IMG/VR virus record: IMGVR_UViG_2548877009_000010
Span: 1-17,283 of that record
Reading direction: 5' to 3' (one strand)
From: a virus
Taxonomy: Duplodnaviria > Heunggongvirae > Uroviricota > Caudoviricetes
DNA: 17,283 nt
Shown here: positions 3,001 through 6,000 of the stretch, piece by piece
Position numbering within the stretch: position 1 is the stretch's first letter
Layout of the letters: each line of letters starts with the position of its first letter
Position numbers: made by a program

Positions 3001-6000
3001 TGTTTGCGCATTGATGCTGAGATACGTTTCCAGTCTTCGCGATCCTTGTCGATAACCTCATTTGTCGCCCAGCGATGGATGGTACCGTCAATGTTTCCTG
3101 CATCCACATCACCGGGCCAGAGGGCGCAGGCCAGTTCATTGTCGAGTGTTTTCCATGTCTGTTTGTATTCGCGGCGAACGGCAACAGTGACAGCCCCGGT
3201 TTTTTCAGCAGCGTTTTCAGTGTTCTGTTGGTTTACTCTGGAACGGGCGATATCAACGACAGATATGTATTTCCCGGTTTCCTTGCGTTCACTTTCGCGA
3301 CGTTTTTTCCAGATGCGCATCTCTGCCTGAATTTCGGGCCATTTAGCAGCAGGTTTACATTTATGCTTAACCCACCCGATGGCATGCAGCTTAAGCTCCG
3401 GATACATGGCGTTAACTTCTGGCATCTTCATCAACGCTTCAACGATATGGCCGTCGAATGTTGCCATGTCTTCCTGCAACAATTCCTGAGCGCTAATCAC
3501 CATATCAACAGTGATGTTTTCACATGCGTCGAACTTAACCATGACGGCGTTCTGTACTTCAGGGGCCAGATTGTCAAAAGTGATGTTCATCGGATCGGAT
3601 TCGGGTTCGACCGGGACAAAGGACGCAGACTCCTCATCCCAGCGGTTTTCCTGCATATATTCGGTATCCCAGGAATCGAGGGCAGGGCGGGGTATGCCGG
3701 GTTTATCCTTGCAGACAATAAATTTATAAGCGCAGTCCTGAGCTGCCGGGAATTGCTCCAGAAATTGCCAGTGAAATTTTGCGCGTGCGCGACGCTTATC
3801 ACCGGCTTCAATGGCAGTGGCCACCGCAACAGCGCTATCTTCTTCTATGGCCTGTTCGTCAGGAATAGCAGCGCAAATAAAGATTTTATTCATTGTGTTT
3901 TAACCTCATGACAGATTTCAGGGTGAACGAATCCCTGCCATTGCTGGCATTTTTAATCCGTTGGTATGGCGTTAATATGGCTGGCGGGTTATCCAGCCGG
4001 TGTTTCGTTATTCAGGTACAGCGATACTTTGTTTAACGGGAGACATTCACCGGAAATTTTTTGCTCGTCTCTTGCCTGATGGCAGGATTCTTTACTGGCA
4101 TAAATTCCGGTAATCACATTCTGTGGCTCACCTGTTATCAGAAAAACCGTCATCATCAGTGCAAACGCTGAACTCACTGCTGCCCTCCGAAAATGCCAAG
4201 TTCAAGAAGGGCAATTCTGGAGAGAATGGAATTATCATTGAGAAGATAAGGCTCATATTTTCTCATCCTGATGGCGTCCTCAGTAAACTCCCGGTTACTG
4301 AGCAGAATACCAATATTAAAACACCCTTCAGACGTATTAACGTTTGGTAGTGACGTTTCCATTATCGCGTCCTCAACAATGAATTTTGTGATGTGGTGCC
4401 TGGTGCCTCCAGGTGACGTTAACCAGTAAACAATTAACGTCGGAATACAGAATCACCCATAACGCTGTTTTTAGCTTTAACTGTTCCGCGTGCGCTTAGC
4501 CGCATTCACCGCATCACAAAATACACTTTAAAAATGGCGGATATCCATTTCTGCCGAATCACCAGAAAAGTGATAACAGAGGTTGTTGTGGCGGTGTTGT
4601 CACTCAGGCGTATGGTCAACCTGACAACCCGGTGCATTTTCTGGAACAATGGAGGAAGCCCCAGCCATACTTACCGCCGCGCCATTTCGCGGATTGCCAC
4701 AACCGGAAGCGCACGATCGAATTAAATTTAACGACGACATATACAGAGAGACTAACTTCGCCGTGCGCTTTCGTGTTATGCCCTGACTTTTCAGGGATAT
4801 GTTCTTTCAGTAAACTGTCAGTGCCGGATTCTTATCCGTGTCCGGCGCACGTGCTCTACCTCACCCGTGAATAAATTAATGATTAATTGATATTTTGTTG
4901 TTTGATTCAACTTTCCCATCGGATGTGTGATGCTTTAAATCACAGGAGTTAATACTGCTTGCTGTAAAATGATTTTCAAGGGGAGCTATTCGAATCCCTT
5001 TCTTTTTCATTAACAAGCCAAATCCTTTATTAATGATGTCCATTAATTCCAGAAAGTATTTTTCATGTAAATCCTGTTTATCAGAGAGCTGCTTCTCTTC
5101 GTACAGCCCGATAAAAGCTCGGCGTACGTTACCGGATATATTATCGATGGTTTCTTTTTCTACGGTACTCAGGTCAAGAGTGGCCAGTTGAGAACGAACT
5201 ATATTCGCTGCCATTTCCTGGAATGGTACTGGTAAATCTTTAAATTCCATCGTCAACCTCATCAGTCAGTGTTTCTGGCTAACCAGCGACGCGCGCCAGC
5301 TTCAGTTTTAAAAGTTTTGCTTCTGGTATACGTCATCGCGGTAAACGTGCCGTCCTGGTTAGGGAACACACCGCATACCAGAGATTCGTTGTTGCCAAGA
5401 TTGAGCGTATCCATGTTGACCTCATTTCCCCTTAACGCCGGGGCGCGGAACTAAAAACCTGCTGCGCTGTTATATAAAGTGTTCCCGCCGTCATGTTCAT
5501 ACGCCTCGGGCTGGCTACTTAACCCCTGACCACTGCCGGGTAACTCGAAGTATTGCCTGGCGTTCTGTGGGATGGGGTTGGAATAAAATAAAGTTTAGAA
5601 AAATGAACTTTACGAGTCAATGTTTTTTTATCAAAACATGACAGCAGGCAGCTGTTAAGCCATCAATATGATGGCGTACAGTAAATTAAGGGGATTAGTT
5701 AAATATCTTGTTGAATTTTAAAGCATACACCTAAAATGCGGGATATATCATCCAGCATGATTGATGGGTAGCGTGGATTTGAGGGAACTAAGAGGATGTC
5801 AGGTCCTTCTATTTCCAATTTACGAATTACTGGTGTAGTTGTTCCTTTTGGTAATGCTAGAACAATATTGCCATGTTGTGCGGTTCGATCTGGGTCGACA
5901 AAGACCGTTGATCCATTCGGAATTGATACACTTCCGCCTGCGGCAGACATACTATCGCTCTCTAGAACTACTGCAAATGTATTGACAGAAGTTTCACCAG

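What the first reader, a model, noticed from the sequence alone, without database searches (positions are those of the whole stretch)
4876..5414. Two uncharacterised, translationally coupled genes at the head of the leftward operon, the second AT-rich
A 50-aa ORF missing from the track and a roughly 124-aa ORF are joined by a stop/start overlap, and the longer one is visibly AT-rich relative to its neighbours, suggesting acquired cargo. This is the position where lambdoid phages carry superinfection-exclusion, host-takeover or anti-defence genes (kil, cIII, ral, sieB-type).
Basis: inference. Interest (0 to 1): 0.5.

Follow-up and report, generated by a model that had tools for sequence, protein, structure and literature searches.

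The report
Two small uncharacterised prophage early genes
The interval holds two real small genes at the start of a prophage's leftward early operon, a YdfA/DUF1391 protein and a 124-residue protein with a conserved head and a swappable tail; both are already catalogued in hundreds of E. coli genomes, no function is known for either, and nothing here points to an unusual one.

Summary
Both ORFs are real genes on the minus strand, directly downstream of a cI-type repressor and a pL-type promoter that shares an operator motif with pR.

**The 50-aa gene (5262-5414).** It is a YdfA/YdaF homologue (Pfam DUF1391, E 8.5e-30).

**The second gene (4876-5250).** It is 124 aa and belongs to PHROG 6937, an unnamed family.
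- The family has a conserved ~50-residue N-terminal two-helix module (MEFKDLP...AF..LY). Its C-terminal parts are unrelated between members.
- Its conserved start is the ATG at 5250, with a GAGG Shine-Dalgarno sequence. This lies 11 nt after the ydfA stop. The TGATG overlap belongs only to an unconserved 128-aa reading.
- It is AT-rich: 36.5% GC, and 31.9% in the variable half.
- It is a discrete 383-bp cassette, absent from K-12 Qin. It follows either ydfA or ydfC, so the two genes are not an obligate pair.

**Selection and prevalence.** Both genes are under purifying selection (pN/pS 0.18 and 0.28). Both exact proteins are already public, as "DUF1391 family protein" and "hypothetical protein". 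They occur in about 26% and 13% of complete E. coli genomes.

**Function.** No sequence or fold match links either protein to kil, cIII, ral, sieB, N, defence systems or any housekeeping function. They are known unknowns of the dicBF-type operon, and interest is modest.

**Side observation.** The ~155-nt transcribed leader upstream is more widespread than either gene and is unannotated.

The parts
5262..5414 (-). ydfA/ydaF-type gene, 50 aa (DUF1391); stop TGA at 5262-5264; GAGG Shine-Dalgarno at 5420-5423
   Evidence: ORF. Pfam PF07151 at 102.6 bits against a cutoff of 27.3. PHROG 751 at 2e-35. pN/pS 0.18. The exact protein is public in about 1000 contigs. AF2 model is beta-beta-beta-alpha, pLDDT 77.
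4876..5250 (-). ORF124: 124-aa gene of the unnamed MEFKDLP family (PHROG 6937); stop TAA at 4876-4878
   Evidence: PHROG 6937 at 2e-76 over its full length. Conserved start and SD. pN/pS 0.28. The exact protein is public as a hypothetical protein. AF2 gives three helices plus a disordered tail at pLDDT 58.
5092..5250 (-). Codons 1-53 of ORF124: the conserved N-terminal two-helix module (M-E-F-K-D-L-P..Q..AA ... F..LY)
   Evidence: Alignments. The module is always N-terminal in 57 representatives out of 1.84 billion. It occurs alone as 60-70-aa proteins in Salmonella, Klebsiella, Serratia, Hafnia and Raoultella. GC 0.428, pN/pS 0.19.
4879..5091 (-). Codons 54-124 of ORF124: the variable, AT-rich C-terminal part (amphipathic basic helix 59-84, then a low-confidence tail)
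   Evidence: GC 0.319. Alleles of 109, 122, 126 and 133 aa carry unrelated C-termini. pN/pS is 0.36 in the tail. pLDDT is below 50 for residues 89-124.
5251..5261 (-). 11-nt intercistronic spacer TGAGGTTGACG carrying the ORF124 Shine-Dalgarno (GAGG, 5257-5260); the alternative ATG at 5260-5262 overlaps the ydfA stop
   Evidence: Read from the sequence. Junction comparison across 82 loci. PGAP start choice.
5592..5642 (-). pL-type promoter (-35 TTGACT 5615-5620, -10 TAAACT 5592-5597) with the overlapping operator-like repeat 5621-5642
   Evidence: Consensus scan. Inverted repeats shared with the pR region at 6333-6354 and 6383-6403. Sequence conservation with relatives begins just downstream at about 5581.
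5415..5585 (-). Transcribed leader; the core 5427-5581 is highly conserved and unannotated; short uORF from ATG 5494 (20 codons here)
5699..6337 (-). cI-type repressor (HTH_3 + Peptidase_S24), context that defines the operon head
4363..4875 (-). Long untranslated region homologous to the K-12 ydfC-dicB spacer; contains a shortened dicF-like element at about 4530-4568
   Evidence: 80.8% identity to the K-12 Qin region. Sequence. No Rfam DicF hit.
3989..4362 (-). dicB (4174-4362) and the DUF1482/ydfD-type gene (3989-4177), the downstream genes of the same operon
   Evidence: Pfam DicB at 7.4e-34 and DUF1482 at 3.8e-14.

Best explanation
The interval encodes two separately initiated small proteins of a Qin/dicBF-type lambdoid prophage. 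They are the first products made from the repressor-controlled pL promoter once the prophage is derepressed.

**Gene 1.** A 50-aa YdfA/YdaF (DUF1391) protein, predicted as a compact three-strand-plus-helix domain.

**Gene 2.** A 124-aa member of an unnamed family. Its functional core is a ~50-residue acidic N-terminal helical hairpin. The AT-rich C-terminal part is exchanged between alleles by recombination. The whole gene behaves as a 383-bp cassette that can follow ydfA or ydfC.

**Shown**
- Both are real genes under purifying selection.
- Both lie within the pL transcription unit, and neither has its own promoter or terminator.
- ORF124 starts at the ATG at 5250, using its own GAGG SD 11 nt after the ydfA stop.

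**Inferred**
- Neither protein has an enzymatic domain, so both most likely act by binding other macromolecules early after induction.
- The conserved N-module of ORF124 would dock onto a conserved host or phage partner. The variable tail would tune or redirect that interaction.
- Both are probably accessory rather than essential for phage growth.
- The close spacing lets ribosomes finishing ydfA reinitiate on ORF124, but ORF124 does not depend on this.
For: **Identity of the genes**
- Pfam DUF1391, PHROG 751 and PHROG 6937 matches.
- pN/pS of 0.18 and 0.28.
- A GAGG SD 6 nt before the ATG, conserved in both junction types.
- The PGAP annotation of relatives agrees.

**Operon context**
- Repressor, promoter and shared operators.
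- No minus-strand promoter or terminator between 5592 and 4876.
- K-12 work shows one transcript from dicBp through ydfA to dicF (bioRxiv 10.1101/2023.04.14.536235).

**Modularity of ORF124**
- The N-module is invariantly N-terminal, with unrelated C-termini of 40-208 aa total length.
- It occurs as a stand-alone 60-70-aa protein in other genera.
- GC is 0.43 in the N-module against 0.32 in the C-terminal part.

**Cassette behaviour**
- 383 bp replace 22 bp of K-12.
- Architectures found: ydfA-ORF124 in 50 loci, ydfA-ydfB-ydfC-ORF124 in 27, and ydfC-ORF124 or ydfB-ydfC-ORF124 without a detected ydfA in 5.

**Fixed position in the operon**
- Family members sit at the operon head next to the repressor/Cro/YdaT module, upstream of Kil, KilR or DicB and the exonuclease. 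This holds in divergent prophages and in the phage record mEp460_ev081.

**No catalytic or known domain**
-.
Against: - There is no direct evidence of translation or of any binding partner.
- The AF2 model of ORF124 is low-confidence (pLDDT 58), so the helical-hairpin description rests on secondary-structure prediction and the conservation pattern.
- "Accessory" status is inferred from presence/absence, not from deletion experiments.
- The constant position of the N-module at the operon head could instead indicate a regulatory role for the phage itself.
- The K-12 non-toxicity data cover YdfA only. ORF124 is absent from K-12.
Confidence: 0.55

Rival explanations
1. Phage-intrinsic regulator. 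The MEFKDLP-module protein, possibly with YdfA, would be the early regulator of lambdoid prophages that lack N and use Cro/YdaS-YdaT immunity modules. For example it could be a CIII-like protector of the CII-equivalent YdaT, or a factor that helps pL transcripts read through to dicB and the exonuclease.
For: - The family occupies the first or second position after pL in every context examined, across divergent immunity regions. It is always found with a YdaT-type gene on the other side.
- No N-like gene is present between pL and dicB.
- The N-module is strongly conserved (pN/pS 0.19).
Against: - K-12 Qin and Rac, and many other prophages, lack the family altogether. It is present in about 13-16% of genomes, against 63% for the leader.
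- There is no similarity to CIII (hhalign probability 0.3%).
- There is no arginine-rich motif, and the N-module is acidic (pI 4.65).
- The AP2 resemblance is not supported by profile comparison (probability 3.7%).
Confidence: 0.2
2. Anti-defence or host-takeover effector. The conserved N-module would be a common scaffold. The rapidly exchanged C-terminal part would target variable host defence or competitor-phage components.
For: - The position is the one where lambda-type phages carry such genes.
- The gene behaves as a cassette with patchy distribution.
- The C-terminal region is mosaic, with higher pN/pS (0.36) and low GC.
Against: - There is no match to any known defence component (PADLOC) or to any solved structure.
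- Stand-alone N-modules without any tail are common, so the tail is dispensable for the core function.
- No anti-defence library was available to test against.
- In K-12, phage protection by the induced operon is attributed to DicB (PMC6832061).
Confidence: 0.15
3. Translated spacers. The main role of the two ORFs would be to keep ribosomes on the long pL transcript, so that Rho does not terminate it before dicF, dicB and the exonuclease. The proteins themselves would matter little.
For: - The leader has a C-rich, G-poor 5' end (13 C against 4 G in the first 30 nt).
- Rho silences Rac-type prophage transcription (PMC4150792).
- The cistrons are tightly packed.
Against: - Purifying selection acts on the amino-acid sequence in both genes.
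- Residue patterns are conserved across genera.
- The 513-nt untranslated region downstream is tolerated anyway.
Confidence: 0.07
4. Cell-division inhibitor or toxin of the kil/dicB type.
For: - The operon is known for toxic small products: dicF, dicB and ydfD (PMC5069750, PMC8835842).
- ORF124 has a basic amphipathic helix at residues 59-84.
Against: - There is no Pfam Kil, KilR or DicB match. A separate dicB gene is present at 4174-4362.
- Induction of the K-12 operon lacking dicF and dicB, with ydfABC still present, gave normal growth and morphology.
- ORF124 alleles are almost always intact: 38 of 40 distinct alleles are full length.
Confidence: 0.08

Closest known systems
ydfA of the E. 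coli K-12 Qin dicBF operon (and ydaF of Rac); Pfam DUF1391
   Same: - Same Pfam family, with 80-98% identity to named DUF1391 proteins.
- Same place: first gene after the repressor-controlled promoter, in an operon that continues to dicF, dicB and ydfD.
- Function unknown in the literature (PMC5069750).
   Different: - Here ydfB and ydfC are missing and ORF124 follows directly.
- The repressor is a cI/LexA-type S24 protein, not DicA.
- The leader is the long conserved type found in Rac rather than the short Qin leader.
PHROG 6937, with PHROGs 1363, 2151 and 9419 sharing the N-module; e.g. the 121-aa gene after ydfA in phage mEp460_ev081
   Same: - Full-length match to PHROG 6937 (2e-76), and N-terminal matches to the other PHROGs.
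- Same gene order in mEp460.
   Different: - The C-terminal halves are unrelated between these groups.
- All are annotated "unknown function".
Lambda-type pL accessory genes (cIII, kil, ral, sieB, N)
   Same: Small size, position in the early leftward operon, and control by the repressor.
   Different: - No sequence similarity: Pfam gives none and hhalign against HK022 CIII gives probability 0.3%.
- No arginine-rich motif.
- No membrane segments. This comes from inspection of the sequence and GRAVY values of -0.43 and -0.63.
AP2/ERF and integrase arm-binding type three-strand-plus-helix DNA-binding domains (fold-level comparison for YdfA only)
   Same: The predicted beta-beta-beta-alpha topology superposes on the TEM1 and AtERF1 AP2 domains, with rmsd 1.1-1.5 A over 36-37 residues and 27-28% identity.
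   Different: - The Arg/Trp DNA-contact positions of AP2 are not conserved. This rests on my reading of the sequence against textbook AP2 motifs.

Membership tests
DUF1391 (YdfA/YdaF), Pfam PF07151 | Score above the Pfam gathering threshold over the whole ~48-residue model | tested here: met
   102.6 bits against a cutoff of 27.3, covering model positions 1-47 of 48. All 18 aligned relatives also match.
DUF1391 (YdfA/YdaF), Pfam PF07151 | About 50-aa protein encoded at the start of the early-left operon of a lambdoid prophage | tested here: met
   The arrangement is the same in K-12 Qin and in Rac-type phages.
PHROG 6937 / MEFKDLP N-module family (unnamed) | Full-length profile match, plus the invariant residues L6, P7, Q11, A14, A15, F46 and L49/Y50 | tested here: met
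   E 2.1e-76 over residues 5-128 of the 128-aa reading, matching profile positions 1-124. Invariant columns are listed.
Translationally coupled pair by stop/start overlap | The downstream gene's functional start codon overlaps the upstream stop (ATGA/TGATG) | tested here: not met
   The overlapping ATG (5262) is absent in the 31 loci where ydfC precedes the gene. The conserved start is 5250, with its own SD, 11 nt after the stop. Coupling by proximity was not tested.
Moron (autonomous cargo gene with its own promoter and terminator) | Flanking promoter and intrinsic terminator allowing expression from the repressed prophage | tested here: not met
   No minus-strand promoter-like or terminator-like site lies between 5592 and 4876. 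The gene-sized indel is nevertheless met.
Kil / KilR / DicB division inhibitors | Match to Pfam Lambda_Kil, KilR or DicB | tested here: not met
   Neither ORF matches at E <= 0.1. DicB is a separate gene at 4174-4362.
Lambda CIII | Sequence similarity to the CIII amphipathic core | tested here: not met
   hhalign of the family profile against HK022 CIII gave probability 0.3%. There is no Pfam hit.
N-type antiterminator | N-terminal arginine-rich RNA-binding motif, with nut (boxA/boxB) sites in the leader | tested here: not met
   There is no Pfam hit. The N-module is acidic, pI 4.65. No nut-like site was recognised in the leader by eye.
Known anti-phage defence proteins (PADLOC) | Match to a PADLOC model | tested here: not met
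   The only hit is a chance-level AbiEi match (E 0.041) for the 50-aa protein. ORF124 has none.
Known anti-defence proteins (Acr, Ocr, Ral-type etc.) | Match to a curated anti-defence family | not testable with these tools
   No anti-defence library was available. Pfam and PDB searches found nothing.
AP2/ERF DNA-binding domain (for YdfA) | Profile-level sequence similarity and conserved Arg/Trp DNA contacts on the sheet | tested here: not met
   [not shown]
HK022-type put antiterminator RNA (for the leader, side observation) | Collinear match to the put consensus (GAACGGCGCG...TAAACCATGCGTCGG...GGCGGGTTCAGGATGAACGGCAAT) forming two stem-loops just after pL | tested here: not met
   Seven put sequences from six phages (HK022 putL and putR, HK639, CobraSix, phiEt88, S9-5, PdC23) share that consensus. 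The leader has only scattered short similarities in a different order. Its predicted folding is no better than shuffled sequence.

The most novel reading that the evidence does not exclude
The ~50-residue MEFKDLP module may be a previously unrecognised early regulator or adaptor. It would be specific to lambdoid prophages that lack N and use Cro/YdaS-YdaT immunity modules. One version: a functional counterpart of CIII or N that controls YdaT stability or read-through of the pL transcript. Another version: a docking scaffold whose swappable C-terminal tails retarget it to different host or defence proteins.
Probability: 0.12. Interest if true: 0.6.

Novelty: already known. Interest (0 to 1): 0.3.

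Why it matters
The dicBF/Rac-type early-left operon is present in most E. coli genomes and produces several potent small effectors (DicF, DicB, YdfD, KilR). Its promoter-proximal genes have never been assigned a function.

This analysis shows three things:
- The second gene belongs to a modular family, with a fixed N-terminal head and an exchangeable tail.
- That family always sits at the operon head.
- The gene is a separable cassette rather than a partner of ydfA.

This gives a concrete construct design for experiments: the N-module alone, the full-length protein, and allele swaps. It does not make the finding surprising in itself, because both proteins are already catalogued as hypothetical.

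Tried and rejected
**Searches that found nothing useful**
- Pfam, NCBIfam and PADLOC for both proteins: only DUF1391 matched.
- PDB sequence search with family profiles: nothing for ORF124.
- PDB sequence search for YdfA: only a 19-residue similarity to the phage 21 head decoration protein (E 0.04). I rejected this as homology, but it explains a recurrent misannotation.
- AF2 of ORF124 gave pLDDT 58, and Foldseek against PDB gave no hit below E 1.
- AF2 of YdfA gave pLDDT 77. Foldseek found nothing below E 0.1.
- Pfam scan of 27 diverse family members for informative fused domains: none.
- A third homology search with the N-module profile found stand-alone modules but no informative names.
- hhalign of the family profile against CIII: negative.

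**Literature**
- Searches for DUF1391, ydfA, ydaF and ydfABC found no functional data.
- The "ydfA" of IncI plasmids in PMC12111858 appears to be a plasmid gene that merely shares the name; I did not compare the sequences.

**The leader**
- I tested the idea that it is an HK022-type put RNA, by collecting seven put sequences from six phages. I rejected it.
- A conserved secondary structure is not supported. MFE z-scores are about 0, and no covarying positions were visible in a 21-sequence alignment.

**Technical notes**
- The first related-loci run on the diverse alignment failed for lack of a conserved block.
- The genome-contig scan returned only two E. albertii loci.
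Full report
**What is at the coordinates**

On the minus strand there is a 50-aa ORF at 5262-5414. It is followed by an ORF at 4876-5262 that reads 128 aa from the first ATG, or 124 aa from the ATG at 5250. Immediately upstream lie three features:
- A cI-type repressor (HTH_3 plus Peptidase_S24) at 5699-6337 on the same strand.
- A P22-Cro-type gene at 6429-6659 on the other strand.
- A YdaT-type gene at 6656-7093, also on the other strand.

A TTGACT-17-TAAACT promoter sits at 5620-5592(-), and an almost identical TTGACT-18-TAAACT lies at 6371-6400(+). The same operator-like motif (TGTTTTGAT..AAAACA) occurs at both. So the two ORFs are indeed the first genes of the leftward, repressor-controlled operon.

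Downstream on the same strand the order is:
- a 513-nt untranslated stretch;
- dicB (4174-4362);
- a DUF1482/ydfD-type gene (3989-4177);
- an 823-aa exonuclease (1422-3893).

This is the dicBF-type operon known from the K-12 Qin prophage.

**The 50-aa gene**

It matches Pfam DUF1391 at 102.6 bits (cutoff 27.3) and PHROG 751 at 2e-35. It is 80-98% identical to proteins named DUF1391, YdfA or YdaF in Escherichia, Shigella, Salmonella and Cronobacter. It has a GAGG 5 nt before its ATG.

Many gene callers extend relatives to 77-86 aa. That upstream extension changes reading frame between alleles and ends in a stop here, so it is not conserved as protein.

Across 25 distinct 50-codon alleles, pN/pS is 0.18. 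The exact protein is already public in about a thousand contigs. A megablast-level copy is present in 1398 of 5426 complete E. coli genomes.

AlphaFold2 predicts three short strands packed on a C-terminal helix (pLDDT 77; about 85 for residues 11-50). The structure searches gave the following:
- Foldseek against the PDB found nothing with E below 0.1.
- Those hits sit among many unrelated small sheet-plus-helix folds such as dsRBDs and UPF0339.
- No AP2 hit appears in Pfam even at E <= 10.

I therefore treat the AP2 likeness as a fold-level resemblance only.

**The 124-aa gene**

It matches PHROG 6937 end to end (2e-76). Through its first ~60 residues only, it also matches PHROGs 1363, 2151 and 9419. 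There is no Pfam, NCBIfam or PADLOC match.

Close relatives (81-98% identity) are all "hypothetical protein" from E. coli, E. albertii, E. marmotae and Salmonella. A sensitive profile search of 1.84 billion cluster representatives found only 57 relatives. In 56 of them the conserved part is the N-terminal ~50-65 residues; the exception is a ydfC-fused ORF. The rest of each protein (total lengths 40-208 aa) is unrelated between groups.

A profile of the N-module alone also finds many stand-alone 60-70-aa proteins. These come from Salmonella, Klebsiella, Serratia, Raoultella, Hafnia and Kluyvera. The invariant residues are L6, P7, Q11, A14, A15, F46 and L49/Y50.

The AF2 model is weak (pLDDT 58). 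It shows helices at 8-23, 32-53 and 59-84, then a low-confidence tail. It has no structural neighbours. pN/pS is 0.19 for codons 1-53, 0.23 for 54-88 and 0.36 for 89-124.

**Start codon and coupling**

In 82 related loci the start ATG GAA TTT is always preceded by GAGG and 6 nt. This holds whether the upstream gene is ydfA (50 loci) or ydfC (31 loci). In the ydfC context, stop codons and no in-frame ATG lie upstream. PGAP also calls the 124-aa form.

So the conserved arrangement here is an 11-nt spacer, with the SD placed right after the ydfA stop. This is compatible with reinitiation but does not depend on it. Folding of the junction gives no structure better than shuffled controls.

**AT-richness and cargo**

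GC is 0.365 for the gene, 0.428 for the N-module and 0.319 for the remainder. Compare 0.497 for ydfA and 0.489 for the window.

Comparison with K-12 Qin shows a clean, gene-sized indel. In a relative with ydfA-ydfB-ydfC-ORF124, 383 bp replace 22 bp of K-12. The replaced stretch runs from 2 nt before the ATG to a few nt after the stop.

ORF124 at 80% coverage or more is present in 702 of 5426 complete E. coli genomes. It therefore behaves as a cassette. However, no promoter-like or terminator-like site flanks it, so it is expressed as part of the pL unit and is not an autonomous moron.

**Position across relatives**

Three divergent family members were traced to their contigs. Each lies next to a repressor/Cro-or-YdaS/YdaT module, upstream of Kil, KilR or DicB and an exonuclease. 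In two of them it is the first gene, with no ydfA. The phage record mEp460_ev081 has ydfA followed by a 121-aa family member with a different tail.

The family is thus a recurrent occupant of the operon head rather than a random insertion. Even so, many prophages, including K-12 Qin and the Rac-type phage examined, lack it.

**What is known experimentally**

- The literature describes ydfA, ydfB and ydfC as small proteins of unknown function (PMC5069750).
- The operon is transcribed from dicBp through ydfA to dicF (bioRxiv 10.1101/2023.04.14.536235).
- Induction of the K-12 operon is toxic because of dicB and dicF. With both deleted, and ydfABC retained, growth and morphology were normal.
- Phage protection by the induced operon is attributed to DicB (PMC6832061).
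- None of this bears on ORF124, which K-12 lacks.

**Interpretation**

What is shown: two real, conserved, separately initiated small genes at the head of a repressed early operon. The second is a modular cassette gene.

What is inferred: neither protein has a catalytic domain, so they most likely act by binding other macromolecules soon after derepression. The N-module would be the functional core of ORF124 and the tail a variable add-on.

I put 0.55 on this general picture. The specific roles rank lower:
- phage-intrinsic regulator: 0.2;
- anti-defence or host-takeover effector: 0.15;
- division inhibitor or toxin: 0.08;
- mere translated spacer against Rho: 0.07.

**Novelty and score**

Both exact proteins are already in public databases as "DUF1391 family protein" and "hypothetical protein". 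Both belong to existing PHROGs, and the operon type is described in the literature. The finding is a correct recognition of known unknowns. The added value here is threefold: the corrected start, the demonstration that the pair is not obligate, and the modular description of the second family. Interest is 0.3.

**Side observation**

The transcribed leader (5427-5581) is conserved from the predicted transcription start onward, whatever immunity region lies upstream and whatever first gene lies downstream. Downstream first genes include ydfA, ydaG and a 118-aa ORF. The leader is also 77% identical in a phage deposited as an Actinobacillus phage.

It occurs in 3434 of 5426 complete E. coli genomes, in up to 6 copies, and is unannotated. 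That makes it more widespread than either gene.

It is not collinear with the HK022/HK639 put consensus. It shows no significant predicted structure or covariation. It starts with a C-rich, G-poor stretch and carries a short uORF whose start and SD are invariant while its body is not. Its function is unexplained.

Noticed in passing
window 5427-5581 (-): The ~155-nt transcribed leader is conserved from the predicted pL start site onward. Conservation is independent of the immunity region upstream and of the first gene downstream (ydfA, ydaG or a 118-aa ORF). It is present in 3434 of 5426 complete E. coli genomes, in up to 6 copies, including the K-12 Rac region, and is unannotated. It is 77% identical in phage vB_Apl-pPE4. 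It is not a put RNA by sequence, and no structure or covariation is detectable. Function unknown.
   Followed up: partly
window 5432-5494 (-): A short uORF (ATG ACG GC..., 20 codons here) has an invariant start and an invariant GAGG 9 nt upstream in all leader variants. Its body changes frame and length: fused in frame to ydfA in many alleles (giving the 77-78-aa gene calls), 17 codons in a Rac-type phage, and 6 codons in pPE4. This pattern suggests that the act of translation, not the peptide, may matter. The first 30 nt of the leader are C-rich and G-poor (13 C, 4 G), which is rut-like.
   Followed up: partly
window about 4530-4568 (-), within the untranslated region 4363-4875: A shortened dicF-like element sits here. 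It has the same 5' end as K-12 DicF (TTTCTGGTGA), then a different, shorter body that ends in a hairpin plus T-run. Rfam's DicF model does not detect it. The only Rfam signal in the region is a sub-threshold STnc100 match at 4330-4537 (32.6 bits, gathering score 47).
   Followed up: partly
window 4781-4796: The hairpin CCCTGA-AAAG-TCAGGG on the operon strand, just downstream of ORF124, is also present in a slightly diverged form (TCAGAC on the 3' arm) in the K-12 ydfC-dicB spacer. It is reminiscent of a boxB-type stem-loop, although no N-like gene is present.
   Followed up: no
window 5621-5642, 6333-6354, 6383-6403: Three copies of an operator-like motif (TGTTTTGAT[AT]4-6AAAACA) are present. 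One overlaps the -35 of pL and two lie in the cI-cro intergenic region. pL and pR have identical hexamers (TTGACT / TAAACT).
   Followed up: partly
window 5298-5354 (-), YdfA residues 21-39: A 19-residue stretch of DUF1391 (dGTFTAMTYTkSKTFKTEA) resembles residues 69-87 of the phage 21 head decoration protein SHP (EGTETALTYYKSGTFATEA; E 0.04). This probably explains why several phage records label ydfA/ydaF as "head-DNA stabilization protein D".
   Followed up: partly
proteins P0359, P0413, P0419, P0424: Stand-alone 63-67-aa homologues of the ORF124 N-module in Serratia, Salmonella diarizonae and Hafnia are named "formyltetrahydrofolate deformylase" in NCBI records. This is almost certainly an annotation error.
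   Followed up: no
L089 (Actinobacillus phage vB_Apl-pPE4, PP818812.1 3792-8941): A phage deposited with an Actinobacillus pleuropneumoniae host carries an E. coli Rac-like early region: a DicA-type repressor, YdaT, the conserved leader, Kil and exonuclease VIII. Within the leader, the hexamer CAGTGG of E. coli is replaced by its reverse complement CCACTG.
   Followed up: no
window 16561-16809 (+): Three tandem tRNA genes lie at the right end of the window (Rfam tRNA, 55-72 bits), as seen downstream of the late-gene regulator in Stx-type lambdoid prophages.
   Followed up: no
protein P0279: One cluster representative is a 149-aa ORF in which a YdfC-like N-terminal half runs directly into the MEFKDLP module. 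This is consistent with the ydfC-ORF124 gene order, and is either a read-through or frameshift call or a natural fusion.
   Followed up: no
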